A stretch of DNA of 51,213 nucleotides from positions 1-51,213 of the IMG/VR virus record IMGVR_UViG_3300048080_000104; one strand, written 5' to 3'. Below, piece by piece: positions 1-51,213 of the stretch; position 1 is the first letter of the stretch; the number at the start of each line of letters is the position of its first letter. Origin of the DNA: a virus. The translations under genes were made by a program, and so were the position numbers. Below the pieces are notes generated by a model. That model did no database searches and was not told the DNA's origin. It was given only the letters and a program-made list of their open reading frames with translations.

Positions 1-127
1 CAGCTCGTCATCCACGGCCCAGTGCCGGTATCCCTCGTGTACGACCTTTACAGGCTCGTCGATTGTGCCGAATTTGTCGACGTACTCGCGCCGAATCAGC
101 GGGTGCGTGGTGTGCTCGCCGGCCAAC
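1..127. repeat. Terminal direct repeat; bases 1-127 are identical to 51087-51213 (circular-closure overlap)
   Basis: Read directly: both ends spell cagctcgtcatccacggccc...gtgtgctcgccggccaac. A minus-strand reading frame continues in phase across the junction. Confidence 0.95.
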
Positions 128-477
128 ACGCGCGGGTTGCCGAGATCGTTCGTGCCGATCACCGAGTAGCCGGCGTCGCGTAGCGGCTTCGTCGCCTGGA
201 ACCAGCCTGGATGAAAGTGCACGTCGTCGGCGGCACATAGGATCCATGGCTCATGGGTCCATCGATATCCGTGGTTGATCTTGAATGGCCACGCAGTCTC
301 ACTAGTGAAATGGTAATCCTGGCCCTCATCGTCCAGCGCAATGATCTCCGGATCATCATCGGCGTCGACAAGAAAGAGCAGTCGACCAGGTGTATCCGAT
401 GCGTCGAACGAGGCGACCAGCGGCGCCACGTTCTGCGGCCGGCGCAGCACCGGGACGAGGACGATGACCTCACTCAC
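1..477 (-). CDS. Glycosyltransferase (GT-A / GT2-like), N-terminal 159 codons; continues across the circular junction into 51086-50901 (220 aa total)
   Basis: Manual translation. GTG at 477 lies 11 nt after GGAGG and 7 nt after the stop of the upstream gene. The protein starts VSEVIVLVPVLRRPQNVAPLVASF and carries LFLVDADDD and CAADDVHF (DxD-type) motifs. There is no stop before base 1, and the phase matches ORF 50901..51212. It is absent from the ORF track because its stop lies beyond the window edge. Confidence 0.7.
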   Translation of the reverse strand, partial: MSEVIVLVPVLRRPQNVAPLVASFDASDTPGRLLFLVDADDDPEIIALDDEGQDYHFTSETAWPFKINHGYRWTHEPWILCAADDVHFHPGWFQATKPLRDAGYSVIGTNDLGNPRVLAGEHTTHPLIRREYVDKFGTIDEPVKVVHEGYRHWAVDDEL

Positions 478-484
478 GGGGACT

Positions 485-1729
485 TCAACCTCCGAACAAT
501 CGACGACGACGCTCACGCTCTGCGGCAAGAGCACCCATGATCCCGGTGTCAGCGACGAGGCTCCGTCCCAACCGACGAGGCCGTGACTGCGTCGCCGGCG
601 CCGCCATGATGCTCAGCACGCATTCTATGGCTTCGTCGATTTCATTCGCTCGGCCGACGACTAGCGGAGCCACCAGCGCAAGCGCAGAGTCTACTTCCGT
701 CGCGAGGCCGATCGCGACCCGCTTGGAGAGAGCGATCGCCAGCGCAGAATCGCTCTCTACGCTCTGCCCGGTGGTCGCGACCTTTCTCGGAACGAGGCCA
801 AGTGCCGCATCGAGCTCGTCCGACCTGCCCACCGAAAGCGGACCCGAGAGATTCAGTGCAAGAGCGGTATCCGACTCTGCGGAAACACCGACCGGTCTGA
901 GCTTCTGGAGTGAGCTGCCGAGCGCGGCATCGGTCTCTGCGCCCTGCCCGGTCGCGAAGAGCTTGGAGAGTGCCCGCGAGATCCCGGAGTCGATCTCCGC
1001 CGCGGTACCGGTAGTGGTGTACTTGACCAGAGCGGTGGCGAGCGACGCGTCCGTCTCGTTCGAGAGGCCAATCGCTGCTACTTCACGAACCGCAAGGTAA
1101 ACCGCAGCAACGTCGTCGCTGATCGCACCAGTATCCCAGCCTACCGGTCTGCTGCCCTGCCCGGGCGTCGTCTCGCGGACCGTGCTGCACGTTCGTGCGC
1201 CGATGTCGATGCTAGGGCCTTGAGTACTGTTTGCACCTACTACTGGGAGATCAGCATCTCCGAACATCACCACTGCAAGACGCAGGCTGTTCGTGCCTGG
1301 GGACCCGTCGTCTACGCTCACCTCAGTGAGCGCCTGGTTCTCCTGCTCGATCTGTACGCCTGTTGCCTGGACAGCGCCGGCGGCCGTAAGCGTGAAGCAG
1401 GCCGCGTACATCGTGTTCGCGGTGTTCGTTCGGGTCACCACGACCGTAGCCGTGTCGGCGGTTGGAACGCCGGACCCTAGAATCCACGCCTTGCAGTTCC
1501 CGATCTCAGTGACGGAATCCGCGGCGAATGCGCCTGGAACCGCGGTAAGCGCGACATCCTCGTAGGTCACCGCTGTGGCAAGATCGGTGACGGTGCTGAC
1601 CACCCACGTGAAGACGACTACACCCTGCGGCGCCGCAACCGGATCGTGCTCCCACGTGAACGATGCCTCGTTCACCGACCCCGTAGTTTCGGTGTGCGAC
1701 TCGGAGGCCGCGTCGAAGGCTACCGCCAC
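485..1729 (-). CDS. Virion-module protein of unknown function; N-terminal beta-sandwich-like domain plus 7 exact-register 20-aa tandem repeats
   Basis: 414-aa ORF with a GTG start 3 nt after the upstream stop. Residues 221-360 form 7 x 20-aa units (G-x3-E-[TISLV]-D-[SAD]-[AGS]-[LI]...), encoded at 650-1069. The N-terminus AFDAASESHTETTGS...TYEDVALTAV resembles lectin-like domains of phage minor structural proteins (from memory). Confidence 0.65.
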   Translation of the reverse strand: MAVAFDAASESHTETTGSVNEASFTWEHDPVAAPQGVVVFTWVVSTVTDLATAVTYEDVALTAVPGAFAADSVTEIGNCKAWILGSGVPTADTATVVVTRTNTANTMYAACFTLTAAGAVQATGVQIEQENQALTEVSVDDGSPGTNSLRLAVVMFGDADLPVVGANSTQGPSIDIGARTCSTVRETTPGQGSRPVGWDTGAISDDVAAVYLAVREVAAIGLSNETDASLATALVKYTTTGTAAEIDSGISRALSKLFATGQGAETDAALGSSLQKLRPVGVSAESDTALALNLSGPLSVGRSDELDAALGLVPRKVATTGQSVESDSALAIALSKRVAIGLATEVDSALALVAPLVVGRANEIDEAIECVLSIMAAPATQSRPRRLGRSLVADTGIMGALAAERERRRRLFGG

Positions 1730-1732
1730 GGC

Positions 1733-2194
1733 CTAGCTCGCCCGGAAGAAGACTCCGCCAGTCAGCTGGAGATCGTTTCCATCCGGCGTGGCCACCGCGT
1801 CGAACATGCATAGCGGGATGATATTCGCGTCCGTACCGGTGCCCGTGTCGGCGTCGTACGCCACCACGATCTTGGAGATCGCATTGCCACTCGCTGCGGT
1901 CCACGTCACGGTCGGCAGCGATACGTCGTAGCGATCATTGCCGGTGTCGGGCCCGGGAAAAGCCGCGAGCTCGGTATCCGTGAGCGTCTTCCGCCCCATC
2001 GTGGTCTGCTCGTTCGTGGCGCCGTCGAGCACCTCGGTCAGAGTCAGACTGTCGATCAGTGCAGCGTCAGTTTCGAGGCCCGTGGTCTCGATCGGAATCA
2101 GGATCAGCGCAGAGGTGGACGGGTCGTTGTTCTTGACGCGGTTGTAGTATTCGACACCACGACCCTTTGCGACGTTGAAGACGATATTCGCCAT
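1733..2194 (-). CDS. Hypothetical protein immediately downstream of portal
   Basis: 153-aa ORF. ATG at 2194 has a GAGGG RBS 8 nt upstream. It is tightly packed between the portal gene and the repeat protein. No family recognised. Confidence 0.65.
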   Translation of the reverse strand: MANIVFNVAKGRGVEYYNRVKNNDPSTSALILIPIETTGLETDAALIDSLTLTEVLDGATNEQTTMGRKTLTDTELAAFPGPDTGNDRYDVSLPTVTWTAASGNAISKIVVAYDADTGTGTDANIIPLCMFDAVATPDGNDLQLTGGVFFRAS

Positions 2195-2215: not shown

Positions 2216-3538
2216 CTATGCTGCGCGCCGCTTACCGCGAAAAGCGTTGCGCACTGCGCGGTGCAGACTCCGCTCCGCGTTCTCGTCGTCCTCATCTGGG
2301 ATCGTCTCGCCTACAATCGCAGCCGGCTCCGGTGCGTCTGGGTCGTACGTCCCCAGCGACCCGGCGATCAGCGGCTGATCGCCCCACTCGACCTCGTCGT
2401 CGTTGCGGTCTGTGAGCACCTTATTCGGGGTGCGCAGCGCATGCTCCAAGTCGTGCGCCTCGCGACGTAGCGTGAAGTCCTTGTCCTCGGAGACGAAATC
2501 CTCGAAGCATACGACCAGGGTCTCGTCGAAGTCGACCGCAAGCTGGAGCGTTAGCGTGTTGGCGATCAGGTTCGCGATCGGCTTCACCGCATAGCGGTCG
2601 AACACGTACTGATTGACATCGGCTGACGAGCGATCGCCACTCACCACCTGGCCGAGTACGCTACGCGGCGTCGCGGTCGTCATCAGAAGATCATCGCGCG
2701 CGTACTCCAGCAGGGGCGTCATCCCCTCGCGCGTATCCACAGATACGCCCTTGTACGTGTAGCCCTGCGGCAATGCCTGCGGAGCAAACCCACGACCGGC
2801 GCGAGAGTGGTTCCGATCCATCCATGCGTTATCGAAGATCTTGAGCTGATCGGGCGTGAAGTTCTGCGCGTTAGGCCCCACTTCGAGCACGCCCTTCGGT
2901 GTTGCGTCGTTCTCGTAGTGGTGCCGAAGGTGCTGCATCGCGAACTTGTGCATATCCGCGGCGATCCCGGTCGGAGAGAGATACCCCTCAGCATTCCACG
3001 GATTCTCGGGATCGGGGAAGAAGGGCCTGATCACGACGTTTGCGGGGATGCGCCCTTGGTGGCCGATTCCGTCGGTGATGGAGTAGCCGACCAGAATACC
3101 TCGGTCCACGAGCGGAGCGATTTGCCCCGGCGTCATGGGGTGCAGCTCTACGGGCATGCCGAAGCCGTTGCCGACCTTCTGCCAGTAGGTCTCGCCAGCC
3201 GAGAGAATCTGGCGCGCCGCGAGGAATAGGAGCTGCGTCAGCGTCCAGTTCGGATGCGGGTGGTCGAGCAGCTTTTTCAGCGGGTGGTCATCGAGCTCTT
3301 CGTCTTCGGTCGTGCCGGCGCGGGTACGCCGGACCACCTTGACCAGCAGCTCGAGCTCTGAGAGCCGGTTCGCGATTGCGCGGGATGCCGCGTCGAACGG
3401 CCCCAGGCTCTCACGCAGGAGTACATCGGTGGGAGGCTGGTTACCGAGACCGGGGCCGAAGTTCTCCGAGCCTGCCGGAGTCCATTGAATCGCGGGAGAT
3501 GCCGCGCGTTGTCGCGTTCCGAGAAGACTTGCAAGCAT
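2216..3538 (-). CDS. Portal protein (HK97-family type)
   Basis: 440 aa with an ATG start, positioned after terminase. The sequence pattern is typical of HK97-type portals (HPLKKLLDHPNP, ETYW, long acidic C-terminus). Confidence 0.88.
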   Translation of the reverse strand: MLASLLGTRQRAASPAIQWTPAGSENFGPGLGNQPPTDVLLRESLGPFDAASRAIANRLSELELLVKVVRRTRAGTTEDEELDDHPLKKLLDHPHPNWTLTQLLFLAARQILSAGETYWQKVGNGFGMPVELHPMTPGQIAPLVDRGILVGYSITDGIGHQGRIPANVVIRPFFPDPENPWNAEGYLSPTGIAADMHKFAMQHLRHHYENDATPKGVLEVGPNAQNFTPDQLKIFDNAWMDRNHSRAGRGFAPQALPQGYTYKGVSVDTREGMTPLLEYARDDLLMTTATPRSVLGQVVSGDRSSADVNQYVFDRYAVKPIANLIANTLTLQLAVDFDETLVVCFEDFVSEDKDFTLRREAHDLEHALRTPNKVLTDRNDDEVEWGDQPLIAGSLGTYDPDAPEPAAIVGETIPDEDDENAERSLHRAVRNAFRGKRRAA

Positions 3539-12521: not shown

Positions 12522-12736
12522 GCGCCCACCCGCTCCCGTAGATGCGCGTGATATCTCCGCCAACTCGCGTGTTCCGCGATCGTCTCTTGCTCCCGCTGCC
12601 GCTGGCCACCACCCACCGGCTCCAGCTCACAGGTCGGGACGCTCCACGAGCCGAAGCACTCGGCACGGATTACGGCGCTGTCACCGTCGGTGGAGACGAC
12701 GAGAACGACTAGCGCGTGGTGGCGGGCGAGCGTCAC
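12518..12736 (-). CDS. Hypothetical small protein
   Basis: 72 aa. The GTG start overlaps the methyltransferase stop (GTGA) and its stop overlaps the next ATG. Confidence 0.4.
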   Translation of the reverse strand: MTLARHHALVVLVVSTDGDSAVIRAECFGSWSVPTCELEPVGGGQRQREQETIAEHASWRRYHAHLRERVGA

Positions 12737-28558: not shown

Positions 28559-28978
28559 CTACGGGCAGGTGCCGCACTGACTCACTCCATTGACCACGGC
28601 GCAGCTCTTGCAGCCTGCGACAAACGCGCGGACGAAGCCCTGCCCGAAGTCGTTCGCGTTGACCGCACCATTGCCGTCTCCGTCCCAACCGAACGGCTGC
28701 GTGCAGTAGACGTGATCGCTGGTCTGGCTAGGCGGACTGTCGTTGTATCCAGAGGCTTTGGTGATCGCGTAGACGGCAAGCCGGCCGGTGCAGCTCAGGG
28801 TTGTCCGGTGATCGGTGGTCGTGTCGAGCCATCGGCCCGTGTCGTCATACCACTCGTAGGTTTCTGCGCCAGCCGAGGGCAGAGCGCAGAAGTAGACCGG
28901 GCTCGTCGCGGTCCAGCACTCGGCACCTGCTGAAGTGGAGAGTGCGATCACGATCATTGCGACGGCGCTATGCCTCAT
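28559..28978 (-). CDS. Secreted Cys-rich protein F with a dockerin/EF-hand-like loop
   Basis: ATGA overlap at the start. Signal peptide MRHSAVAMIVIALSTSAGA-E. 8 Cys in the mature part. DGDGNGAVNAND motif. Confidence 0.65.
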   Translation of the reverse strand: MRHSAVAMIVIALSTSAGAECWTATSPVYFCALPSAGAETYEWYDDTGRWLDTTTDHRTTLSCTGRLAVYAITKASGYNDSPPSQTSDHVYCTQPFGWDGDGNGAVNANDFGQGFVRAFVAGCKSCAVVNGVSQCGTCP

Positions 28979-29979: not shown

Positions 29980-30658
29980 ACGCGGAGTCGCCCGCGTTGT
30001 CGCTGTCGCGCAGGATCAGGCACGCTGCACCGGAGCCGGCGCCACTGGTGATCGTGCCGGGGACGTTCAAATTGTTCGATGCGTCGATCGTCACGGCGGA
30101 GTTGACGATGTCGCCCGTTGTCCCGCTGAACTTTGCGACTGCGAGATCGGTACTCGTGCCAGCGCTTTTCGCGTCGAGCTCGGCTTGCGTCGCGACGTCT
30201 GCCGCGACCTCCGAGGCGTTCACCGATGCGGCCTCTAGCTCCCCGTTCGCGTCGAGATCCGTCGCCACTCCGAAATCACCAGCGTCGGGTACGTCATCAT
30301 CGACTGCGCAGTCCTGTGCTGCGTTTGCGCCATCGACACCACGCGGATAGTTCCCCACAGAGCAGTTTGCGCCATCGACACCTGCAGCGACTCCGCCGAT
30401 GGTTGTACCCGACGTCAGGTCGTTTGGTGTAGCCGTAGAGGTATCGGTGGCGAGGAGAGAGTCGATGCGCGCGTCGTCATCATCTACGCCGACTTCGATC
30501 AGTGCCCAGTTCGCGTTCATCGTCCCAGGTGACTGCACCCCTGGGTTCGGCTGTGCTGTCGTTGTGATCGAACTCGCCGCGACATCTCCAGCGATCAGTA
30601 CGGCGATTACGACCCTTCCCAGAAGTTGCCAGTGGACCATGTGTTCCCCGTCTCCCAT
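29912..30658 (-). CDS. Secreted/anchored fibre-like protein D
   Basis: Hydrophobic N-terminus LLGRVVIAVLIAGDVAASS. AVAKFSGTTGDIVNSAVTIDASNNL is a tail-fibre-type motif. 6 Cys. Confidence 0.62.
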   Translation of the reverse strand: MGDGEHMVHWQLLGRVVIAVLIAGDVAASSITTTAQPNPGVQSPGTMNANWALIEVGVDDDDARIDSLLATDTSTATPNDLTSGTTIGGVAAGVDGANCSVGNYPRGVDGANAAQDCAVDDDVPDAGDFGVATDLDANGELEAASVNASEVAADVATQAELDAKSAGTSTDLAVAKFSGTTGDIVNSAVTIDASNNLNVPGTITSGAGSGAACLILRDSDNAGDSACAVLNGTFSCQIDTNGVCGDSI

Positions 30659-31485
30659 GTGTTCACCTCACTATCGCCTGCGCCAACTTGTTCGCAGCCA
30701 CGCCACACGCTCACGTCGTCGTTGCGAATGAACGCGAGCACGTTTGGCGAACGCGCCTGCAAGTGGACGCCAACCCGCTCACCGGATCCGCAGCCAGGAA
30801 AGAAGCTGTCGCAAAGCTCCTGAGTCTTCGATAGGTCAGGACTGCCGTAAACCGTCTGCCATGTTGTTGGGTTGTTAGGTGCAGTCGCGCCCATGTTCCA
30901 TATCGCGAAGTGCGCCGTGTCGGTCGCGGCATTGTACTGCCAGCACGCTCCTAGATAGTCGCCGACGACGAACGCTCCAAGATTCCCGATCTCCTGGCCA
31001 ACCTCCAGATCCGTGAAGAACGTAAACTGTGTGCAGGGGAGCCCGTCGTAGCAGAACAGCGAGTAGTAGCTTGCGGAAACGTCCCCACTCTGGTGCCAGA
31101 TGATGAGCCCCGGTCCCGCCCAGCCGTCGCTGCCAGCGGTTCCGTGATCGAATCCTGTTAGTTTGACAGCGGCGCAACCTGCCGTCGAACCGATGTCGGT
31201 ATCGAATCGTGCGATGCCCTCTTGTCCGCTACACGCACCGTCCGTCGCTTCGCGGTCGCGCTCGATAGATCCCGATGCAGCGTGGCCCTGCACAGAACAG
31301 TCGCCTTGAGCGTCTTCGTTGTAAGTTGTCCAGCCAGTCGTCGAGCCCGAGTCGAAGGTCTGCGTAGCTCCGACCTGTTCGCAATCGTTCGGCGGCGGCT
31401 CGAAGAAGGAGCCACCGACGAGCTCCCCGGCTCCTGCAGCCGACGCCAGCAGGAGAATGAGGATGAGAGGAATAGTGGCGCTCAT
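30607..31485 (-). CDS. Secreted Cys-rich protein C
   Basis: ATGA overlap at the start. Signal MSATIPLILILLLASAAGAG-E. 10 Cys. C-terminal NTWETGNTWSTGNFW repeats. Confidence 0.68.
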   Translation of the reverse strand: MSATIPLILILLLASAAGAGELVGGSFFEPPPNDCEQVGATQTFDSGSTTGWTTYNEDAQGDCSVQGHAASGSIERDREATDGACSGQEGIARFDTDIGSTAGCAAVKLTGFDHGTAGSDGWAGPGLIIWHQSGDVSASYYSLFCYDGLPCTQFTFFTDLEVGQEIGNLGAFVVGDYLGACWQYNAATDTAHFAIWNMGATAPNNPTTWQTVYGSPDLSKTQELCDSFFPGCGSGERVGVHLQARSPNVLAFIRNDDVSVWRGCEQVGAGDSEVNTWETGNTWSTGNFWEGS

Positions 31486-31922
31486 TGTGCGCTGATCGCG
31501 CGAACATGGCAGAACGCCGCCTCAGGTGCGGTTGTCAAGCTCACCACGTCTATCTCGATGTAGCTGTCGGCCGCCCAGGGTGAGCCCGTTAGCGTTGCGT
31601 CCAAATAGGTGGTGTCGATCGCTGCCAGCGTCACATCGCCTCCGATCGTTGCGCAGCTCGTCGCGCCGGCGCCGGTGCATTGCCGGAGCTGCAACACGAG
31701 TGCAGCTACGGAGCCGCCTCGCGCCCAGCAGGACAACGAGGTACCGGTCAAGGCCCTATCGAGCCTCACAACCTGATTGACGGCCGAAGCGCTCGGGTTC
31801 GGTATCGCGAAGCTGACGGCCACCTTCTCGATGACTGCGCTGCGACTCTGCGCATTGCCGAGCGTGGGAAGCAGCAGCGTCAGCAGAAGGGTAAGAATCA
31901 AGCGCATTCTTTCAGTCCTCAC
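31482..31922 (-). CDS. Secreted protein B
   Basis: GTGA overlap at 31922, or ATG at 31907. Signal MRLILTLLLTLLLPTLGNA-Q. 4 Cys. Confidence 0.62.
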   Translation of the reverse strand: MRTERMRLILTLLLTLLLPTLGNAQSRSAVIEKVAVSFAIPNPSASAVNQVVRLDRALTGTSLSCWARGGSVAALVLQLRQCTGAGATSCATIGGDVTLAAIDTTYLDATLTGSPWAADSYIEIDVVSLTTAPEAAFCHVRAISAQ

Positions 31923-33799
31923 TTCGCAGTGTCCTGCAAGGCTACGCAGACCGTGTAGGTATCACCGGATGGATTGGGTGCAGTCCCCACGTCGAATCGG
32001 ATGCCGGCGCCGGACGGGAGTAGCCGGTCGGCATCGGCAACGAGTACGGGCTGCCAAGTGGCCGTCGAGGCACTGCCGACGCAGGTCAGCGTTGCGTTGA
32101 GACCGATCGCCGCACCTGCGAGCGTCTCCACAGTCATCGTCGCATTTGTTGTCGGCGTTACCGTTGTGTCGCTACGGCAGGACATCGCAGCGACGGTGGA
32201 AGGCTGCCATGTCATCAGCGGAATGTTCACGTTGTCGGACGTGTCGGAGACGTTGCTGAACTGATAGCAGTGGTTTTTGACCGGCGTGATGCACTTCTGG
32301 GTGAATAGTCCGTCGCCGTAGCAGTGCTGTCCGCCCATGCTTATCATCGCGTCCGTCCAAACGCCCGCATCGCTCGTGTCGATCGTGATATCGCCGCTGC
32401 TTAGCATCGTACCCGCAGGCCCACCGAGGCTCGCGTTCGATGCGGTCGGGATCGACACGCGTGAGTAGTTCGCGTCGGCGTACCCGCCACGCCCAAGATG
32501 GAGAACGTTGTCGCCGGTCTGGCCGCTGAGCCAATAGAGAGGCGTGCTCGTTCCGTCGACTACGCCACGGCGCTGATCCCAGTCCACACGATTCGTCGCT
32601 GTGTAGAGCGTGTAAAAGAAAGGTCGCCACGGCACGGAGTCCGCGCTTGGGGCCCCGCTAACGGTCCCAGTCGGCGTGCAGCTCGGTCCGTTGCAAGCGG
32701 TGATCGTGTTGCCGCTAGCTGGCGGTACATGGTCCACGCAGGTCATCCTCACGAGTGCCCCGTTGGATAGATCGGCATCCGCCTGCGCTGGTCTGCAGAC
32801 CGCGCCATTGCTGAACGTGATATTCTGGCCTAGCGCGATAGCACCAACGCCGCCCGAAGCAATCGTGACGCGGAACGTGGAAGGCGAAAACTGCCAGTAG
32901 AACTCAACGTACTCCGCGCCGGAGCGCTGCAATGCATCGTATCCGTACTCGACGCTAATCGTCGAAGCGTAGAGGGCCGGGTCTGCGTTTCCGAAGTTGT
33001 AGATTGAGAGACCATGAATCGGGTTGACGACGTTGATGGAGGGCGTCGACAGAACTCCGGACTCGATCGTGCCGATCCGTGGACCAGGGAACGGATTCGG
33101 GTCTGCACCTGCTCCATCGGCTACACCCGGGCAGTCATCAAGATCGCAAGTCGTCCACTCGGTATCCTGTCGAAAGGCATCGACGACAGCGGCATCGATG
33201 AATGGCGGGACATAATCGTCTACCCAGCTCGAGCCGTTGAATACGAGCACCTTGTCGACTTCTGCGCCGGTGGTGTCCACGTCGCTGAGCGACGTCAGCG
33301 TCAGCAAGGCGTCTATCCAGTTCGTCCCGTTGAACCGAAGCACATCGTCAACATTGGCGCCGGCTGTGTCGACGTCGGCGAGCACGGATACGCCCTCGCT
33401 TTCGAGGACGAAGTTGACGCCCGTGAGCGTCTGGAGCTCGCCGATCGAGTTAAGCTCCGATTCGAGCAGTAGAGTCGTGAAGTCGCACAGGAGCCCATTC
33501 GGAGGAGACTCGGAGCAGAACGGAGCATTGTTGATTGCGATCGCGGTGAGTGCGGTTGATTCCACACCGCCACCTTCGAGGTTCAATGTGATCGATCCGC
33601 CGCCGCCACCGCCACCACCTGCACACAGCTCCTCTCCGAGATCCTGGAGGTTTTCGCTCGTGCACGTGGTGCCCGTCTCATCGAACGAGATCTGAGACGC
33701 ATTGGCGAGCCGAGGCGGGCCGTCTCCTGTGCCCTGCCCGTAGATCGTGAGCGGCATGCACACGAGTGCCGCCGCGAGAATGGCTCTCGTGAAACGCAT
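31919..33799 (-). CDS. Secreted fibre-like protein A (626 aa)
   Basis: ATG with an AGAGGA RBS. Signal MRFTRAILAAALVCMPLTIYG-Q. A G8 run. Two LxDVD...VLxFNGxxW fibre-type motifs. 16 Cys in the mature part. Confidence 0.78.
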   Translation of the reverse strand: MRFTRAILAAALVCMPLTIYGQGTGDGPPRLANASQISFDETGTTCTSENLQDLGEELCAGGGGGGGGSITLNLEGGGVESTALTAIAINNAPFCSESPPNGLLCDFTTLLLESELNSIGELQTLTGVNFVLESEGVSVLADVDTAGANVDDVLRFNGTNWIDALLTLTSLSDVDTTGAEVDKVLVFNGSSWVDDYVPPFIDAAVVDAFRQDTEWTTCDLDDCPGVADGAGADPNPFPGPRIGTIESGVLSTPSINVVNPIHGLSIYNFGNADPALYASTISVEYGYDALQRSGAEYVEFYWQFSPSTFRVTIASGGVGAIALGQNITFSNGAVCRPAQADADLSNGALVRMTCVDHVPPASGNTITACNGPSCTPTGTVSGAPSADSVPWRPFFYTLYTATNRVDWDQRRGVVDGTSTPLYWLSGQTGDNVLHLGRGGYADANYSRVSIPTASNASLGGPAGTMLSSGDITIDTSDAGVWTDAMISMGGQHCYGDGLFTQKCITPVKNHCYQFSNVSDTSDNVNIPLMTWQPSTVAAMSCRSDTTVTPTTNATMTVETLAGAAIGLNATLTCVGSASTATWQPVLVADADRLLPSGAGIRFDVGTAPNPSGDTYTVCVALQDTAK

Positions 33800-46047: not shown

Positions 46048-46884
46048 CTAGAAGTCCTGGAATGGGAAGAGAAGCGCCTGTGCAGACTGCTCGGCCGCAG
46101 AGATGCCGCTCGACGAGGAGGAGCTACTCGCCCAGCGGATCGTCGATGCGCCCGAGATCGACTCCTCGATGATGCCGCTATTGCCGGTCGCGCGTGTCGT
46201 GTAGCTCTCGCGCGCCAGCATCACGACAGCCCGGTAGATGCCGCCCGGGAGGTTCGAGAACGTGATCGCTCTTGTTGCAGCCGCTTCGGTAACCAGCGTC
46301 TCGTTCACGGTGATCTTGCTGGTAGTGGTGGTGACAACACGGCGCAGTCCGTTGTTCGCGCTGTTTGTGAAGCCAGCGGCCGTGATGAGATCGCCAGGCT
46401 TCGAGTGGACTTTGAATAGCGCCGTACTGTTGTACGAGTTGTCTGCGCTGGCAACGCTGACGGAGCCCGAGAGATCGTCGTCAGCCACGAAGTAGCCGGC
46501 TGTGGTCGTGATCTCCCATGCGTTTGGATCGTCCTGCGAGCTGAATGTCCCGCTCGGGCGGTACAAGAACCCAGCCTCTCGGCTGTCGATCTCGTAGTCG
46601 GTCAGGCTCTGTGAGCTGCTCTGGTAGAGCACCGCATCGAGCGAGGCGATCGGACGGACGCCGAGCAAGAGGCGCGGCCGACCAGTGCCAGCGAGCGTCT
46701 GCTTGTACTGGGCTCGGATCAGCGGGCGCCCTAGCATGATCTCGATCCGGCTCGACGCCTGATCGAGCAGCATCTGCAAAACGGCATCATCTCCGGCACC
46801 AAAGATGCCCAGCTCCACCTTGAAATCGACCAGCGGGACCAGCGAGGTTTTCGCCGGAGATACGACGATCTCGATGGAGCCCAT
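46048..46884 (-). CDS. Head-tail connector (gp6-like) with an inserted domain
   Basis: 278 aa. The N-terminus LVPLVDFKVELGI...DDAVLQMLLDQASSRIEIMLGRPL is gp6-like. Confidence 0.65.
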   Translation of the reverse strand: MGSIEIVVSPAKTSLVPLVDFKVELGIFGAGDDAVLQMLLDQASSRIEIMLGRPLIRAQYKQTLAGTGRPRLLLGVRPIASLDAVLYQSSSQSLTDYEIDSREAGFLYRPSGTFSSQDDPNAWEITTTAGYFVADDDLSGSVSVASADNSYNSTALFKVHSKPGDLITAAGFTNSANNGLRRVVTTTTSKITVNETLVTEAAATRAITFSNLPGGIYRAVVMLARESYTTRATGNSGIIEESISGASTIRWASSSSSSSGISAAEQSAQALLFPFQDF

Positions 46885-47174: not shown

Positions 47175-48494
47175 CTAGAGCGAGGTCGCGCTGGTGATCC
47201 CTGCCGCCAGCTGGCCAGCAGAGGTATCGATGTTGTTCCCGGCGATCCGCTGCGAGATGATCCAAATCACGCGGCGAGTGTCGAAGAAGAAGTCCTTCGA
47301 TGCCTCTACCGTGATTCCACGTCGGCGACCAATCGCGTAGTTGCGCGACACGTCGCCGAAGTAGATGTCACCGGCCGTCAGGTCCACCTCGTGAACGGGC
47401 TTGCCGAGCAGCGTACCGACGGCCCCCGCCATGCGGTCTCCCGTCGATGCGTCGCTGATCGCCATCGGCGGATCGAGCAGACTGCCGTAGAACGGCCTGC
47501 CCATCCCGTCGCGAACGTTGCTCATGAACCCGAGCACGTCTCCGGCGACGAGCCACATCGCGTTATCGCGATAGCGCTGGGGGACATTCCGGTACATCGC
47601 AAGCACGTCTCGGAACTTCAACTCCCCGGTACTGATCTCGGCGTAGGCCGTGCCGGCTAGCTTCGTGACGTGCGGAGCCGTGCCGGTCCCCGCCTTCAAG
47701 AACTCGGCGTCCTCCAGCTCTGCCAGCGCATCTCCCATCAGCTGCACGAAGACGGGCACGATGTTCGCCGCCTCATCGTCGAGCATGTTCCGCCCGAGGA
47801 TCAGCTTCCCGATCGCGTCGTGCGCGATCAGCGGCTTCTGCGCGAGCGCCGGCTCGCCACCCGTGAGGGGTGACGTGGCCTCGCCCTGCATGTACGCCGT
47901 GGCCGCGGCCGCCGTCGGGATGTTGTGCTCCTGCTGGGTCATGATGTACGTGCGCGCCCATCGCGACATCTTCGCGATCTTCCGGAGTGCGATCGCGACG
48001 AGGCTCTCGAGCGGTCTCGGGAGCAGAACACCACCGGTTCCGTCTGCGAATCCACCGACGCCAGACGCGACACCCTCCAACGTGTCGGCACGATAGAGGT
48101 CGGGGAAGATCCCCGAGAGCTTCGCGTCGGCCTCCATCCGCCCGGCGAAGTCACCATCGCGGATCGAGCGGAGCCACTGGAGATTCCAGTGATCGGAATC
48201 GAACGTGCGAAGCCTGCGCTCGGGCTCGGCCAGTCTCATCCGTTCCGGGCTCGAATCCCACGGCCGCGACAGCCGCGCGACGGACTCCCCGTTTCGATTC
48301 AGAAGATCCGGAATCCCGCTTCGATCCGGTCGCTCGTAGGCCGCGATGATCTCGCTCACCCCTTCGAGCATCTTCTGTTCGTGACGCATCGCGATCGCTT
48401 CGAGCTTCGCGTGGATCGCAGCCTCGAAACGGGCGACACCCTCAGGACTCTCGGGGCTCGGGGGCCCCAGCGTAGTCGGTTCGGTCATGATCAT
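47175..48494 (-). CDS. Major capsid protein (HK97 fold) with an N-terminal delta-like region
   Basis: 439 aa with no Cys and a typical HK97-family pattern. The likely start is the third codon (ATG at 48488, AAGGAG 8 nt upstream). Confidence 0.9.
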   Translation of the reverse strand: MIMTEPTTLGPPSPESPEGVARFEAAIHAKLEAIAMRHEQKMLEGVSEIIAAYERPDRSGIPDLLNRNGESVARLSRPWDSSPERMRLAEPERRLRTFDSDHWNLQWLRSIRDGDFAGRMEADAKLSGIFPDLYRADTLEGVASGVGGFADGTGGVLLPRPLESLVAIALRKIAKMSRWARTYIMTQQEHNIPTAAAATAYMQGEATSPLTGGEPALAQKPLIAHDAIGKLILGRNMLDDEAANIVPVFVQLMGDALAELEDAEFLKAGTGTAPHVTKLAGTAYAEISTGELKFRDVLAMYRNVPQRYRDNAMWLVAGDVLGFMSNVRDGMGRPFYGSLLDPPMAISDASTGDRMAGAVGTLLGKPVHEVDLTAGDIYFGDVSRNYAIGRRRGITVEASKDFFFDTRRVIWIISQRIAGNNIDTSAGQLAAGITSATSL

Positions 48495-49711
48495 TTCTCC
48501 TTCGCCGCCGTGCGCTCCATTTTTGCGCGCGCAGTGGCGATCATGGACTCCATGCGTTCGAGCATCGATCCCAGTGCGACCACCTCTTCCGAGGGGCCGC
48601 CGTTCTTAGCTCGTGCTTCTTTCAGCAGTTGCTCGACTTCCGCGTGCGCGGCTTGACGGTACGACTGGAGCGCGGGATCGATCTTCCCGGTCTTCAATTG
48701 CACCATCGCCCGCGTGGCCGCGAGGCCGCGCTGATTGCTTCTTTCGAGCATGGCGTCCAGATGGTTCAGAATTCCTGCAACGTTCTTGAACGGCGCAGCC
48801 GGAACGCCTGATACACGGCTTGACTTCTCCAGCGATGCGAGTTGCGCGCGCATCGCAGAAAGCTCTGTCTGCTGCTCGGTGAGCAGTGCGAGGAGATCGG
48901 GAACGGTGGGCTCTTTCTCCGCGCGCTGTGCGGAGATGATCTCGCCGATCTTGTCGAACGAGACGCCGACCTGTTCGTGGAGCTCTCGCACCTGCGCCGC
49001 GAATGCGGCCAGGCGGCTGCTCTCGTCGGGCGGCTTGATCACGACGACGGCGGGCTCGGGCTCGGTGACCTCGATCGGTGCGGGTTCATCGGCCATCGGC
49101 TTTCGCTCCCATTCCTCGCGAGGCTTCGCGTCGTCGACCATGGCACGCCAGAAAGCGGAGACAGCGCCTTCGGTGCTCTCGGCGCGGCCGATCATCGCGG
49201 CCTTGTCGGCCTGCACGGCAACGATGGAGCCTTCGCGTACGGCCCATTTCTCGTGATAGAAGCCATATCGCTTCCGATAGTCGGCATCGTCTTCCTTGAC
49301 GTGCGCGGGGTGCTCTTTCGGAAGCGAGGTCCGCCGCACGTACTTGATCGGCTCCCAGCGCACCGAGATCCCGGTCACGTGGCCCTGCTGGATCATGTGG
49401 GCGATATCGCGTCTGATCTCGGCCGACGGGCCCTGGCCACCGAGCTCGATCTGGCCGCGGGCACGCAATCGCTTCGGCGACGACTGGAGATCGCGGCGAA
49501 AGCCGCTCACCGTGCCCAGCGTGTCGCGTGGGTCGTTGATATGCGATAGCTGGAGCGGTGCGCGTGCAGTGAACTGCGCGCCTTCGATCGACAAAATGTC
49601 CCCGTCGCTCGCCTCGCCGTCGGTCGCGAGGATCATCGGAAACTCGCCAGTCTCCATGTCGATCTCGCTGCGTTCGAACTCGGCGAATCGCACACGGGTT
49701 TCATCAGCCAT
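48491..49711 (-). CDS. Prohead protease (HK97/S78-type) fused to a scaffold-like coiled coil
   Basis: The ATG at 49711 has AAGGAG 9 nt upstream and overlaps the glycosyltransferase stop. The N-terminal protease-type region has LQLSHIND and GISVRW. The C-terminal 200 aa are helical and charged. Confidence 0.85.
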   Translation of the reverse strand: MADETRVRFAEFERSEIDMETGEFPMILATDGEASDGDILSIEGAQFTARAPLQLSHINDPRDTLGTVSGFRRDLQSSPKRLRARGQIELGGQGPSAEIRRDIAHMIQQGHVTGISVRWEPIKYVRRTSLPKEHPAHVKEDDADYRKRYGFYHEKWAVREGSIVAVQADKAAMIGRAESTEGAVSAFWRAMVDDAKPREEWERKPMADEPAPIEVTEPEPAVVVIKPPDESSRLAAFAAQVRELHEQVGVSFDKIGEIISAQRAEKEPTVPDLLALLTEQQTELSAMRAQLASLEKSSRVSGVPAAPFKNVAGILNHLDAMLERSNQRGLAATRAMVQLKTGKIDPALQSYRQAAHAEVEQLLKEARAKNGGPSEEVVALGSMLERMESMIATARAKMERTAAKEK

Positions 49712-50444
49712 GTTGGGCGACTCCTTCATTCGGTGCGCTCGGGGCCTCTTGTGCCTTCTGCACTTCGAGGAACCCTTTTCGCATGAGAGGCGAGAACTGG
49801 AATGTACCCACGTGATTGACCTGCTTACTCAGGTCGTGGTCGATGTAGATCTCGTGGCCTGCGGCGATCACCTTCTCACAGAAGACGTAATCCTCACCGC
49901 GGAAGATCCCCCTCTCGGGGACCCACTGGTATTCCCACCACGGCAGCGCGATGTCACGCAGCACGTCGAGGTGGATCATCATGATTCCGGTGCCGACGCG
50001 AGAGACCTTCTGGATCCCCGTGCTGTCAGCGTTTGTCGGGACCTCGAGGTTATTCGCGTCGCGCGCGGTCACGTAGTACGGATGACGGCGCGCCATGCAG
50101 TTGATCGCGACCACCGGGAGGTGATGGCGGACCATGCGCACCGCGAGATCACGCGGGAACTCCATGTCGCTGTCGATCATGAGTATGTGCGTCCAGCCAG
50201 CCTCGATGGCCACCTGACAGAGAAGCTGGCGAGACAGCGGCAGCATCGAATACTGGGCCGTCTGGTATCCGATGATGAGCCCGTCGGAGATCGATTGCGC
50301 AACGCAGTGGACGAGCGATAGGCAGTAGACCGCTAGTGCGGTGTCCTGGAGCGGAGTAGCAATCAGGACCTTGGGCGTTTCCGTGAGCGTCTGGAGTCGG
50401 TGCGCTTTGCGCGCGATCAGCTTTCGGACCTTCGATGCCTTCAC
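49704..50444 (-). CDS. Glycosyltransferase (GT-A fold)
   Basis: 246 aa with a GTG start. ILMIDSDMEFP (DxD), GTGIMMIH, RGEDYVFCEK and a terminal HVG match a phage/bacterial GT2-like pattern. Confidence 0.75.
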   Translation of the reverse strand: MKASKVRKLIARKAHRLQTLTETPKVLIATPLQDTALAVYCLSLVHCVAQSISDGLIIGYQTAQYSMLPLSRQLLCQVAIEAGWTHILMIDSDMEFPRDLAVRMVRHHLPVVAINCMARRHPYYVTARDANNLEVPTNADSTGIQKVSRVGTGIMMIHLDVLRDIALPWWEYQWVPERGIFRGEDYVFCEKVIAAGHEIYIDHDLSKQVNHVGTFQFSPLMRKGFLEVQKAQEAPSAPNEGVAQHG

Positions 50445-50448
50445 ACGG

Positions 50449-50916
50449 TTACCCCAACTTCATCGCAACGACGAACACGCCCGGCACCTGCGGGTCTGTG
50501 GTCTCCACCGCTTCGAGGCCGAGCCGCTGCGCCAGTGCGGCCAGCGTGCCCGGCATGAATCGCCACCGATCGGGTGGGTTGTGGTGCGGGAATCCGTTGC
50601 CGCGTGCCGTCACGAGCAGAAGCCCATCGGGTGCCAGCACGCGCACCATTTCGGCCAGCGATTCGGTGGGGGCGAGTGCGTGCTCCAGCATCTCGGTCGA
50701 GATCACTGTCGCGAATGAGCCGCTCTCGAAGGGCAGCGGTTTGTAGGCGTCGATCACCGCGTCGACGCCGGGTCCGTCGACGATGTCAACACCGAGGTAC
50801 GGCGTAGGGCAGAGCGAGCGCACGGAGCCGTTGACGTTGTAGGAGCCGACCTCGAGTACGGGAGCTTTGATACGTTCTCGGTGCGACCGCACGAAGGCGA
50901 TCACGCTCTCATGCAC
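50449..50916 (-). CDS. Class I SAM-dependent methyltransferase
   Basis: 155 aa. VLEVGS (motif I region) and ISTEMLEHALAPTESLAEMVRVLAPDGLLLV (Methyltransf_11-type). Confidence 0.75.
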   Translation of the reverse strand: MHESVIAFVRSHRERIKAPVLEVGSYNVNGSVRSLCPTPYLGVDIVDGPGVDAVIDAYKPLPFESGSFATVISTEMLEHALAPTESLAEMVRVLAPDGLLLVTARGNGFPHHNPPDRWRFMPGTLAALAQRLGLEAVETTDPQVPGVFVVAMKLG

Positions 50917-51213
50917 GCTTCGACCAGCGGCTTTCGCTTTGCCCAGAGCGCCATGTCCGCGCTCGCGTTTGCCTGGCCGAGCGCATAGACATCATCCCAC
51001 TTGCCGCGTCGCCAGTACGGATGCAAGTGCTCGACGATCGCCTCGCGACAGAACGCCCACGCACCGCGGGCTTTGGCCGTTGCGACCAGCTCGTCATCCA
51101 CGGCCCAGTGCCGGTATCCCTCGTGTACGACCTTTACAGGCTCGTCGATTGTGCCGAATTTGTCGACGTACTCGCGCCGAATCAGCGGGTGCGTGGTGTG
51201 CTCGCCGGCCAAC
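50901..51213 (-). CDS. C-terminal part of the wrap-around glycosyltransferase (unique part 50901-51086; 51087-51213 duplicates 1-127)
   Basis: Same reading frame as 1..477 across the junction. Ends ...LWAKRKPLVEACMRA with its stop at 50901. Confidence 0.7.
   Translation of the reverse strand, partial: LAGEHTTHPLIRREYVDKFGTIDEPVKVVHEGYRHWAVDDELVATAKARGAWAFCREAIVEHLHPYWRRGKWDDVYALGQANASADMALWAKRKPLVEACMRA
51087..51213. repeat. Second copy of the 127-bp terminal overlap
   Basis: Identical to bases 1-127. Confidence 0.95.

What the first reader, a model, noticed from the sequence alone, without database searches (positions are those of the whole stretch)
49704..51213. Glycosyltransferase - SAM methyltransferase - glycosyltransferase cassette wired into the portal-protease-capsid operon (wraps to 1-477)
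Canonical HK97-type modules run portal, then protease, then capsid. Here five genes sit between portal (2216-3538) and protease (48491-49711). The last three are a GT-A glycosyltransferase (477 to 1, then 51086 to 50901), a class I methyltransferase (50449-50916) and a second DxD glycosyltransferase (49704-50444).

They are packed with overlaps. The last glycosyltransferase stop overlaps the protease start region, whose AAGGAG RBS lies inside the glycosyltransferase gene. They are therefore co-expressed with the head genes at high late levels.

This is the arrangement expected for enzymatic glycosylation (with O-methylated sugars) of virion proteins. That has been shown experimentally only for a few mycobacteriophages, which carry GT/O-MT/GT genes. 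This phage instead looks like one infecting a diderm host, judged from the lipoprotein and the TIGR02594-type endolysin.
Basis: partly seen in the sequence, partly recalled or inferred. Interest (0 to 1): 0.65.

Follow-up and report, generated by a model that had tools for sequence, protein, structure and literature searches.

The report
Phage capsid-operon sugar-adding enzyme cassette
An uncultured phage carries two sugar-transferring enzymes and a methyltransferase between its portal and capsid genes, the same place as in a mycobacteriophage known to coat its particles with sugars, which suggests that virion glycosylation reaches well beyond mycobacteriophages.

Summary
The window is a circular 51,086-bp phage genome. 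On the minus strand, portal is followed by two inserted genes. Next come a GT-A glycosyltransferase (GT1, wrapping the ends), a small SAM methyltransferase and a second GT-A glycosyltransferase (GT2). Then follow a protease/scaffold gene and an HK97-type capsid gene. All are tightly packed.

The interpretation, virion glycosylation, is the best-supported reading but is inferred only.
- Mycobacteriophage Corndog has portal, O-methyltransferase, three glycosyltransferases, protease, capsid, so this placement is not new.
- GT2-family genes sit beside the capsid gene in at least four unrelated phage lineages.
- Their cellular relatives in Methylobacterium sit beside flagellin genes.
- The GT2 model most resembles collagen-hydroxylysine galactosyltransferase and the glycosyltransferase of STIV, whose capsid protein is glycosylated.
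- GT1-family genes head multi-glycosyltransferase cassettes just after the capsid gene in many uncultured phages. Those capsid proteins end in Gly/Ala-Ser, like the capsid proteins of phages with glycosylated virions.

The window's enzymes show no sequence or profile homology to the mycobacteriophage enzymes. The acceptor, the sugar and the host are all unproven. I rate this a new variant of a known kind, of moderate interest.

The parts
49704..50444 (-). GT2: 246-aa soluble GT-A glycosyltransferase with an invariant DSD motif. It is the last gene before the protease/scaffold gene and the constant element of the cassette across relatives.
   Evidence: - ORF.
- phrog_1574, 6e-16; weak Pfam Anp1 hit.
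- Invariant D91-S92-D93, G183-E184-D185 and H211.
- AlphaFold model pLDDT 94.
- Best PDB fold matches are COLGALT1, LH3 and STIV A197.
- No transmembrane segment.
- Present next to capsid genes in several lineages.
50449..50916 (-). 155-aa class I SAM-dependent methyltransferase.
   Evidence: - Methyltransf_11, 1e-8.
- phrog_32762, 7e-16.
- Only generic O-/small-molecule methyltransferase matches in NCBIfam and PDB.
- Orthologues sit in the same position in L004, L090, L208 and L212.
50901..51086 (-). GT1, C-terminal part (the gene wraps the ends of the circular contig). Bases 51087-51213 duplicate 1-127.
1..477 (-). GT1, N-terminal part. The whole protein is a 220-aa GT-A (GT2-like) glycosyltransferase with invariant D41 and A83-D84-D85.
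   Evidence: - phrog_14945 'glycosyltransferase', 7e-7.
- 814 homologues, some carrying PF00535.
- Alignment.
- AlphaFold model pLDDT 96.8.
- Fold matches to WrtF, SpsA and TarP.
48491..49729 (-). Putative prohead protease/scaffold fusion. The likely start is the ATG at 49711, which overlaps the GT2 stop and follows an AAGGAG ribosome-binding site.
   Evidence: - Sequence at the junction.
- Weak hits to phrog_617 and phrog_4523 and NF045541; no Pfam protease hit.
- The N-terminal 200 aa are conserved in relatives.
47175..48494 (-). HK97-type major capsid protein, the most likely acceptor. It ends ...GITSATSL.
   Evidence: - Phage_capsid, 2e-23.
- The C-terminal motif GIT[SA]x[TN]S[LV] is conserved in all six GT2-bearing relatives and absent from the cassette-less relative L176.
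2216..3538 (-). Portal protein, the upstream border of the inserted block.
   Evidence: Phage_portal, 1e-24.
485..2194 (-). orf153 plus orf414: a two-gene insertion between portal and GT1 that is absent from close relatives. It is probably a fibre or decoration module and not part of the conserved enzyme cassette.
   Evidence: - Absent from close relatives.
- orf153 homologues precede fibre-like genes in phages Hiyaa and Pam4.
- orf414 has eight 20-aa repeats.

Best explanation
The cassette is a phage-encoded system that glycosylates virion proteins.

**Proposed mechanism**
- It is transcribed with the head genes late in infection.
- The three soluble cytoplasmic enzymes use host nucleotide-sugars and SAM.
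- GT2 is the constant member of the cassette and is translationally coupled to the head-assembly genes. It most likely puts the first sugar on a Ser/Thr of the major capsid protein. The candidate site is the conserved C-terminal ...GITSATSL tail.
- GT1 extends the glycan and the methyltransferase caps it.
- The result would be a sugar coat on the outside of the capsid, and possibly on other virion proteins.

**What is shown**
- The gene content, the enzyme folds and their catalytic motifs.
- The operon packing.
- The recurrent linkage of both enzyme families to capsid genes.

**What is inferred**
- That the acceptor is a protein.
- Which protein and which residue.
- The order of action of the enzymes.
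- The sugar.
- That methylation is on the sugar.
For: 1. **Same position as an experimentally studied system.** Corndog has portal, O-methyltransferase, three glycosyltransferases, protease and capsid. [quoted passage not shown]

2. **GT2-family genes lie next to the capsid gene in independent lineages.**
- The window clade: L004, L090, L208, L212, plus L213 where GT2 alone sits between portal and protease.
- L006.
- A freshwater podophage clade, where all 80 IMG/VR loci inspected fit capsid, small ORF, GT2, tail tubular protein A wherever the contig reaches far enough.
- SU10-like phages, including the cultured Microcystis phage Mel-JY34.
- In cyanomyophage ACG-2014f the gene lies among tail-fibre genes.

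3. **Cellular GT2-family genes pair with flagellin.** They are divergent neighbours of flagellin genes in 16 of 16 Methylobacterium loci. Flagellin is another self-assembling surface protein.

4. **Fold matches point to protein glycosylation.** The best PDB matches to the GT2 model are collagen hydroxylysine galactosyltransferase, LH3 and STIV A197. The STIV capsid protein is glycosylated. Relative L212 adds a prolyl/lysyl-hydroxylase-type 2OG oxygenase to the cassette.

5. **GT1-family genes follow the capsid gene.** In 56 of 80 IMG/VR loci GT1 lies about 0.4-5 kb (mostly 1-2 kb) downstream of it. In 72 of 80 other glycosyltransferases lie within the 8-kb flank, nearly always just downstream. 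One of these families is homologous to Corndog gp37/Che8 gp109. In those loci 25 of 26 distinct capsid C-termini end in Ser, 23 of them as Gly/Ala-Ser, against 18% of ORFs in the same loci. This matches Che8 gp6 (-TGS), Che8 gp11 (-DGS) and Corndog gp41 (-VGS).

6. **Capsid C-termini track the presence of GT2.** The six GT2-bearing capsid proteins of the window clade share ...GIT[SA]x[TN]S[LV]. The one cassette-less relative ends ...GLTTAG.

7. **Relatives carry a sugar O-methyltransferase.** It belongs to the rhamnosyl-O-methyltransferase (RMNT_CmcI) family.

8. **The enzymes look soluble and the rival pathways are missing.** There are no transmembrane segments. No hydroxymethyl-base or TET-type genes were found among the ORFs scanned.
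Against: - There is no experimental evidence for this phage or for any member of either enzyme family.
- The enzymes show no sequence or profile homology to the validated Che8/Corndog enzymes. The argument therefore rests on position, fold class and gene neighbourhood.
- GT-A folds also act on lipids, polysaccharides and DNA. The TM-scores to the protein-modifying enzymes are modest (about 0.5).
- The window capsid protein ends in -SL, not in a terminal Ser.
- SU10-like capsid proteins next to GT2 genes have no C-terminal Ser.
- The C-terminus contrast within the window clade rests on a single cassette-less relative.
- The Methylobacterium and podophage observations are each one lineage, and so one evolutionary event each.
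- The methyltransferase is generic and could act on something else.
Confidence: 0.6

Rival explanations
1. The enzymes modify a host cell-surface component (LPS/O-antigen, exopolysaccharide, flagellin or pilin) during infection. The purpose could be to block superinfection or to stop progeny adsorbing to debris. Prophage TarP and the Gtr seroconversion systems work this way.
For: - GT1's best fold matches include TarP, a prophage wall-teichoic-acid glycosyltransferase, as well as SpsA and WrtF, which are polysaccharide enzymes.
- JGI annotations call some GT1 relatives 'glycosyltransferase involved in cell wall biosynthesis'.
- Cellular GT2 relatives sit beside flagellin genes, so host flagellin is a conceivable target.
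Against: - The genes lie inside the late head operon and are translationally coupled to the head-assembly genes. They are not in a lysogeny or moron position.
- There are no membrane segments and no flippase or GtrA/B/C-like partners.
- Linkage to the capsid gene recurs in unrelated lytic-type podophages.
Confidence: 0.15
2. The glycosyltransferases hypermodify phage DNA by glycosylating hydroxymethylated bases, to evade restriction.
For: - Phage glycosyltransferases are classically DNA-modifying.
- A TET-associated glycosyltransferase appears among distant BFVD fold matches (rank 49, TM 0.43).
- The genome invests in DNA methylation, with two N6/N4 methyltransferases.
Against: - No dCMP/dUMP hydroxymethylase, thymidylate-synthase homologue, TET/JBP or C5-methyltransferase was found in the ORFs scanned.
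- The genes sit in the head module, not in the replication module.
- Protein-modifying and viral capsid-associated glycosyltransferases are much closer fold matches.
- The methyltransferase lacks DNA-methyltransferase family hits.
Confidence: 0.04
3. The cassette glycosylates virion proteins, but the acceptor is not the major capsid protein. It could be a fibre or decoration protein such as orf414, the Ser-rich tail of the head-tail adaptor, or the tail tube.
For: - orf153 and orf414 lie directly upstream of GT1.
- The adaptor has an SSSSSSS run.
- In the cyanomyophage the GT2 relative lies among fibre genes.
- SU10-like capsid proteins lack a C-terminal Ser, and a small acidic ORF separates the capsid gene from GT2 there.
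- In mycobacteriophages the tail tube is glycosylated as well.
Against: - orf153 and orf414 are absent from all close relatives that keep the cassette.
- The conserved neighbours of GT2 are the capsid and protease/scaffold genes.
- In L213 GT2 alone sits between portal and protease.
Confidence: 0.15
4. The proteins have lost or never had a virion-related enzymatic role. They could be a selfish mobile cassette, a small-molecule glycosylation system, or structural proteins with a GT-A fold.
For: - Gene content varies between relatives, with a second methyltransferase and a 2OG oxygenase present or absent, which suggests a modular and mobile cassette.
- The acceptor is not known for any family member.
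Against: - Catalytic motifs are invariant across distant homologues.
- The families are large and conserved: 1,496 clusters at E<=1e-30 for GT2.
- Codon usage matches the neighbouring genes.
Confidence: 0.06

Closest known systems
Mycobacteriophage virion glycosylation system: Corndog gp35-38 and Che8 gp108-110 (Freeman et al. 2023, Cell Host Microbe 31:1216, as cited)
   Same: - Phage-encoded GT-A glycosyltransferases plus a SAM methyltransferase in one co-oriented cassette.
- In Corndog the cassette lies exactly between the portal and prohead-protease genes, upstream of the capsid gene.
- In both, the last gene before the protease has a GT25 or GT25-like fold.
- Glycosyltransferase partners of the GT1 family in other phages are homologous to gp37/gp109.
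   Different: - No sequence or profile homology between the window's GT1, GT2 or methyltransferase and gp35-38/gp108-110.
- The methyltransferase is Methyltransf_11, not TylF.
- There are two glycosyltransferases instead of three.
- The window capsid protein ends -TSL rather than -GS.
- The host is probably not an actinobacterium.
- Nothing has been tested experimentally.
STIV A197 glycosyltransferase and its glycosylated capsid protein B345 (PDB 2c0n)
   Same: A minimal, soluble, virus-encoded GT-A enzyme. It is among the top fold matches to GT2 (E 2e-9). It comes from a virus whose major capsid protein is glycosylated.
   Different: - An archaeal virus with a double jelly-roll capsid.
- The acceptor of A197 is itself unproven.
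- 12% sequence identity.
Collagen hydroxylysine glycosyltransferases (human COLGALT1/GLT25D1, the LH3 glycosyltransferase domain, and giant-virus PLOD-like enzymes)
   Same: - Best PDB fold matches to GT2 (E about 1e-9), with giant-virus PLOD-like domains among the BFVD matches.
- These enzymes glycosylate a protein side chain.
- Relative L212 pairs GT2 with a P4H/lysyl-hydroxylase-type 2OG oxygenase.
   Different: - TM-score only about 0.5.
- No Pfam Glyco_transf_25 hit for GT2.
- The window has no oxygenase.
- The acceptor chemistry is unknown.
Bacterial flagellin O-glycosylation systems
   Same: A cytoplasmic glycosyltransferase modifies the subunit of a self-assembling extracellular polymer. 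GT2-family genes are conserved neighbours of flagellin genes in Methylobacterium.
   Different: - The known flagellin glycosyltransferases (Maf, FlmG, Fgt; from my own knowledge) belong to other families.
- The Methylobacterium gene is uncharacterised.
- I found no paper on it.
Prophage-encoded envelope glycosyltransferases (TarP; Gtr seroconversion)
   Same: GT1 shares the GT-A/GT2 fold with TarP.
   Different: Those enzymes are expressed from lysogens and act on teichoic acid or lipid-linked O-antigen. The Gtr systems need membrane partners. Here the genes are soluble, expressed late and sit within the head operon.

Membership tests
Mycobacteriophage virion glycosylation system (Che8 gp108-110 / Corndog gp35-38) | Phage-encoded cassette of GT-A glycosyltransferases with a SAM-dependent methyltransferase | tested here: met
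Mycobacteriophage virion glycosylation system (Che8 gp108-110 / Corndog gp35-38) | Cassette co-transcribed with virion genes; in Corndog it lies between portal and prohead protease | tested here: met
   Window gene order. Corndog gene order. No internal promoter or terminator.
Mycobacteriophage virion glycosylation system (Che8 gp108-110 / Corndog gp35-38) | Homology to the essential GT25 enzyme gp110/gp38 | tested here: not met
   BLASTP found nothing. hhalign of the GT2 and GT1 profiles against a 28-sequence gp110 profile gave probability 0.1%.
Mycobacteriophage virion glycosylation system (Che8 gp108-110 / Corndog gp35-38) | Homology to gp109/gp37, gp108 or the TylF-type O-methyltransferase | tested here: not met
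   The window's methyltransferase is Methyltransf_11, whereas Corndog's is TylF.
Mycobacteriophage virion glycosylation system (Che8 gp108-110 / Corndog gp35-38) | Capsid and tail-tube subunits ending in Gly/Ala-Ser, at the C-termini where glycans are reported | tested here: inconclusive
   The window capsid protein ends -TSL with an invariant penultimate Ser. The tail tube ends -SRF. Capsid proteins next to GT1-family cassettes elsewhere do end in [GA]S.
Mycobacteriophage virion glycosylation system (Che8 gp108-110 / Corndog gp35-38) | O-linked glycans physically present on virion proteins | not testable with these tools
   Needs mass spectrometry or glycan staining of particles.
GT-A fold, inverting GT2-like glycosyltransferases (GT1) | Rossmann-like GT-A fold with an acidic metal-binding motif after beta-4 and an early nucleotide-binding Asp | tested here: met
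   Model pLDDT 96.8. 340 PDB matches at E<=1e-3, led by WrtF, SpsA and TarP. Invariant D41 and D84-D85. PF00535 is recorded on some homologues.
CAZy GT25 / COLGALT1-like glycosyltransferases (GT2) | Match to the Glyco_transf_25 sequence family | tested here: not met
   No Pfam or NCBIfam hit. There is only fold-level similarity. GT2 belongs to a large separate family, phrog_1574, with 8,630 clusters at E<=1e-10.
Phage DNA glycosyltransferase systems | Co-occurrence with enzymes that make hydroxymethylated bases (dCMP/dUMP hydroxymethylase, TET/JBP with a C5-methyltransferase) | tested here: not met
   None found in the ORFs scanned. Not every small ORF was scanned.
Gtr-type seroconversion systems | Membrane proteins GtrA (flippase), GtrB (bactoprenol glycosyltransferase) and GtrC, located near the integration module | tested here: not met
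   No hydrophobic segments in GT1, the methyltransferase or GT2. The neighbours are portal, protease and capsid.

The most novel reading that the evidence does not exclude
GT2 would represent a large, uncharacterised family of protein O-glycosyltransferases, with about 1,500 50%-identity clusters at E<=1e-30. The family would be dedicated to subunits of self-assembling surface polymers: phage capsids and, in Methylobacterium, flagellin.

If so, enzymatic glycosylation of virions is not an actinobacteriophage speciality. It would be common in phages of Gram-negative bacteria, including an abundant freshwater podophage clade, SU10-like cyanophages and T4-like cyanophages. Modular accessory genes (a second glycosyltransferase, one or two methyltransferases, sometimes a prolyl/lysyl-hydroxylase-type oxygenase) would tailor the glycan.
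Probability: 0.4. Interest if true: 0.75.

Novelty: new variant of a known kind. Interest (0 to 1): 0.55.

Why it matters
As far as I recall, the paper that discovered virion glycosylation in mycobacteriophages concluded that there was little evidence for it in the wider phage population. I could not read that paper here.

- **If the inference holds:** two unrelated glycosyltransferase families have been recruited repeatedly into head-gene modules across very different phages. These include phages of Gram-negative and cyanobacterial hosts. Sugar-coated capsids would then be a general phage trait. That has consequences for particle stability, adhesion to mucus or polysaccharide, grazing and immune recognition, and the design of therapeutic phages.
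- **It is testable now:** cultured carriers exist, namely Microcystis phage Mel-JY34 and Synechococcus phage ACG-2014f.
- **A further lead:** the Methylobacterium loci point to a candidate flagellin glycosyltransferase.

Tried and rejected
- **DNA similarity to cultured phages:** none.
- **tblastn of GT1 and orf414 against 50,697 phage records:** none.
- **Sequence search of GT1, GT2, orf153, orf414 and the protease against PDB:** nothing useful.
- **Freeman et al. 2023:** not available in the library, so I relied on citing papers.
- **Homology of the window's enzymes to Che8/Corndog enzymes:** rejected. I tried BLASTP, single-sequence hhalign and profile-profile hhalign.
- **A long C-terminal extension on the capsid protein as acceptor:** rejected. 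The Pfam match ends 13 residues from the end, and the cassette-less relative has a capsid protein of similar length.
- **orf153/orf414 as part of the cassette or its target:** rejected. Close relatives lack them.
- **Finding capsid relatives with a single-sequence scan:** failed. A four-sequence alignment found only one cassette-less lineage, so the with/without comparison is thin.
- **First greedy gene caller:** failed in 31 high-GC loci. I replaced it with tblastn using cluster representatives.
- **tRNA scan for host clues:** none found.
- **Literature on flagellin glycosylation in Methylobacterium, or on glycosylated tailed-phage capsids outside the mycobacteriophages:** nothing found.
- **DNA hypermodification:** considered and set aside.

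Full report
**1. The observation**

The window's last 127 bases repeat its first 127 exactly, so it is a circular assembly with a unit of 51,086 bp. Joined across the ends, the minus strand encodes a 220-aa protein, GT1, from 477..1 plus 51086..50901.

The minus-strand order is as follows:
- large terminase, 3717-5162
- portal, 2216-3538 (Phage_portal)
- orf153, 1733-2194
- orf414, 485-1729
- GT1
- a 155-aa Methyltransf_11 methyltransferase, 50449-50916
- GT2, 49704-50444
- a 412-aa protease/scaffold-like protein, 48491-49729
- an HK97-type major capsid protein, 47175-48494 (Phage_capsid)

The junctions are tight. GT1 and the methyltransferase overlap by 16 nt. The methyltransferase and GT2 are 4 nt apart. 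The GT2 stop overlaps an ATG at 49711, which follows an AAGGAG inside GT2. No promoter-like or credible terminator-like site lies on this strand between terminase and capsid. GC3 values of the three genes match their neighbours.

One caveat is that the 'protease' has only weak hits to protease/capsid-fusion families and no Pfam protease hit.

**2. What the three proteins are**

*GT1*
- It has 814 homologues, some carrying PF00535.
- D41 and A83-D84-D85 are invariant.
- The model is very confident, with pLDDT 96.8.
- It matches GT-A/GT2 enzymes such as WrtF, SpsA and TarP.

*GT2*
- It belongs to phrog_1574, annotated 'unknown function', and gets only a sub-threshold Pfam Anp1 hit.
- D91-S92-D93, G183-E184-D185 and H211 are invariant.
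- The model has pLDDT 94.
- Its best PDB matches are human collagen hydroxylysine galactosyltransferase COLGALT1, the glycosyltransferase domain of LH3, and A197 of the archaeal virus STIV. The STIV major capsid protein is glycosylated, and A197 is proposed to be the enzyme responsible.
- Among predicted viral structures, the nearest are uncultured-phage glycosyltransferases, then giant-virus PLOD-like domains. A TET-associated DNA glycosyltransferase appears only at rank 49.
- A profile search finds 1,496 50%-identity clusters at E<=1e-30 and 8,630 at E<=1e-10, nearly all single-domain proteins of 200-260 aa.

*Methyltransferase*
- It is a generic class I SAM enzyme.

*All three*
- None has a hydrophobic segment long enough to span a membrane.

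**3. The decisive comparison: Corndog**

In mycobacteriophage Corndog the order is as follows:
- portal gp34 (Phage_portal)
- gp35, a TylF O-methyltransferase
- gp36
- gp37, GT2-like
- gp38, Glyco_transf_25
- gp39, an S78 prohead protease
- gp41, the capsid protein

Corndog, Che8 and Myrna are the phages whose virions were shown to carry glycans at the C-termini of the capsid and tail-tube subunits. Che8 gp110 and Corndog gp38 are described as essential for this.

A methyltransferase/glycosyltransferase cassette wedged between portal and protease is therefore not a new arrangement. It is the arrangement of an experimentally studied glycosylating phage. This raises confidence in the functional reading and lowers the novelty of the 'wiring'.

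The window's enzymes are not homologues of the mycobacteriophage ones:
- BLASTP finds nothing.
- Profile-profile comparison of either glycosyltransferase family with a 28-sequence gp110/gp38 profile gives probability about 0.1%.

**4. Relatives of the window phage**

| Locus | Arrangement |
|---|---|
| L208 (GT1 73% identical) | portal, GT1, methyltransferase, GT2, protease |
| L004 and L090/L173 | the same, plus a full-length rhamnosyl-O-methyltransferase-family gene (RMNT_CmcI) |
| L212 | portal, GT1, 2OG-Fe(II) oxygenase of prolyl/lysyl-hydroxylase type, a 148-aa ORF, RMNT_CmcI, Methyltransf_11, GT2, protease/scaffold, capsid |
| L213 | GT2 alone between portal and protease/scaffold |
| L006 | portal/MuF, three unknown ORFs, GT2, scaffold, capsid |
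| L176 (more distant; capsid 33%, portal 39%, terminase 42%) | canonical terminase, portal, protease/scaffold, capsid, with no cassette |

GT2 is thus the constant element and the other genes are modular accessories. orf153 and orf414 are absent from all of these relatives, so they are a separate insertion in the window.

**5. GT2 family outside this clade**

- Cultured Microcystis phage Mel-JY34 has the GT2 relative directly after the capsid gene.
- Two Manatee Spring podophage genomes have scaffold, capsid, small ORF, GT2, tail tubular protein A.
- The best 80 of at least 379 IMG/VR relatives all belong to that podophage clade. They show the same order wherever the contig reaches far enough.
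- SU10-like contigs have capsid, small acidic ORF, GT2.
- In cyanomyophage ACG-2014f the relative sits among tail-fibre genes, next to another glycosyltransferase and a nucleotide-sugar epimerase.
- In bacterial genomes most hits are phage contigs binned into MAGs of diderm bacteria.
- The exception is informative. In 16 of 16 Methylobacterium loci the GT2-family gene lies about 330 bp from one or two flagellin genes and diverges from them. This marks the cellular branch as a candidate flagellin glycosyltransferase.

**6. GT1 family outside this clade**

- In 56 of 80 IMG/VR loci GT1 lies about 0.4-5 kb (mostly 1-2 kb) downstream of a capsid gene on the same strand. This holds across three different head-module types.
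- In 72 of 80 loci other glycosyltransferases lie within the 8-kb flank, nearly always just downstream of GT1.
- One of these partner families is homologous to Corndog gp37/Che8 gp109.
- The adjacent capsid proteins, whether P22-coat-like or HK97-like, end in Ser in 25 of 26 distinct tails. In 23 of them the ending is Gly/Ala-Ser. Only 18% of ORFs in the same loci end in Ser.
- This is the same ending as Che8 gp6 (-TGS), Che8 gp11 (-DGS) and Corndog gp41 (-VGS).
- All 70 podophage capsid proteins next to GT2 end in -TS.
- In the window clade the six GT2-bearing capsid proteins share ...GIT[SA]x[TN]S[LV], while cassette-less L176 ends ...GLTTAG.
- SU10-like capsid proteins do not fit this pattern.

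**7. Mechanism proposed**

The cassette is expressed late, from the head operon. Soluble GT2 would transfer a first sugar from a host nucleotide-sugar to a Ser/Thr of the capsid protein, most likely in the exposed C-terminal tail. GT1 would extend the glycan and the methyltransferase would cap it. Relatives with RMNT_CmcI would methylate a deoxyhexose. Relatives with the oxygenase may hydroxylate the acceptor first, as happens in collagen.

Shown here:
- the genes, their folds and their catalytic motifs
- the operon packing
- the linkage of both families to capsid genes

Inferred:
- that the acceptor is a protein, which protein and which residue
- the order of action of the enzymes
- the sugar
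- the target of methylation

I put 0.6 on 'virion-protein glycosylation', with the capsid protein as the favoured acceptor.

**8. Rivals**

- *Envelope modification* is disfavoured by the late-operon position, the lack of membrane partners, and the recurrence of the linkage in podophages with lytic-type genomes.
- *DNA glycosylation* is disfavoured because no hydroxymethyl-base or TET genes turned up in the ORFs scanned, and because the genes sit in the head module.
- *A different virion acceptor* (fibre, adaptor or tail tube) remains open.

**9. Host**

No tRNA genes were found, and there is no DNA match to any cultured phage. Three things fit a diderm host without proving it:
- the endolysin is TIGR02594/CHAP-type
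- every named organism carrying a GT2-family relative is a diderm
- the closest methyltransferase-GT2 pair found in a genome bin lies on a Gemmatimonadota MAG contig

**10. Verdict**

The arrangement is that of a known system built from non-homologous enzymes, so I class it as a new variant of a known kind. The wider pattern, two glycosyltransferase families repeatedly embedded beside capsid genes in many uncultured and a few cultured phages, is the part worth following up.

Noticed in passing
window 51087-51213 versus 1-127: There is an exact 127-bp terminal direct repeat. The contig is a circular assembly with a unit of 51,086 bp, and GT1 spans the junction.
   Followed up: yes
window 485-2194 (minus strand): orf153 and orf414 are a two-gene insertion between portal and GT1 that is absent from all close relatives. 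orf153 homologues precede a 1,110-aa 'minor tail protein' in Streptomyces phage Hiyaa and a polysaccharide lyase in Pseudanabaena phage Pam4. orf414 has a domain of about 215 aa followed by eight repeats of about 20 aa each (ExDxAL...G, residues 225-384). It has no homologue in any library searched.
   Followed up: partly
L188-L201 and L203 (Methylobacterium genomes), about 6400-8600 in each locus: A GT2-family glycosyltransferase is a conserved divergent neighbour, about 330 bp away, of one or two Ser/Thr-rich flagellin genes in 16 of 16 Methylobacterium loci. This is a candidate, undescribed flagellin glycosyltransferase.
   Followed up: partly
L212 2843-6720 (JGI 3300041081): A relative's cassette also contains a 2OG-Fe(II) oxygenase of the prolyl/lysyl-hydroxylase type (2OG-FeII_Oxy_3) and an RMNT_CmcI methyltransferase. 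GT2's best fold match is collagen hydroxylysine galactosyltransferase. Together these hint at hydroxylation followed by glycosylation of a protein side chain.
   Followed up: no
L089-L168 (IMG/VR), for example L092 6371-11000: Many uncultured siphophage-like contigs carry capsid, (connector), GT1, and then three more glycosyltransferases. Their capsid proteins, from two unrelated capsid families, almost all end in Gly/Ala-Ser. The GT1 family is almost absent from cultured phages, with only distant hits in Arthrobacter jumbo phages.
   Followed up: partly
L009-L088 (IMG/VR) and MW202711/MW202496: A large freshwater podophage clade has a GT2-family gene fixed between the capsid gene (plus a small ORF) and tail tubular protein A. 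All 70 capsid proteins recovered end in -TS.
   Followed up: partly
window 6197-7606 (+) and 12733-13689 (-): There are two N6/N4 DNA methyltransferases. The first is fused to an Mrr/NA-iREase-like nuclease domain.
   Followed up: no
window 17026-17868 (+): This ORF is a pentapeptide-repeat protein (Pfam Pentapeptide, 4e-41). It lies in a region where the coding strand is ambiguous.
   Followed up: no
window 28559-33799 (minus strand): There is a run of five ORFs with N-terminal signal-peptide-like hydrophobic leaders, downstream of the tail genes. The three scanned against PHROGs (28975-31485) and the 626-aa ORF scanned against Pfam gave no hit, and the other ORF was not scanned. This is unusual for virion proteins.
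   Followed up: no
window 46048-46884 (minus strand): The head-tail adaptor carries an extra C-terminal region with TTTT and SSSSSSS runs. This could be an alternative glycosylation site.
   Followed up: no
window 49704-50444, N-terminal residues 1-22 of GT2: GT2 and its HK97-clade relatives have a variable, strongly basic N-terminal helix (for example KASKVRKLIARKAHR). The podophage and SU10-like members lack it. Its role is unknown.
   Followed up: no
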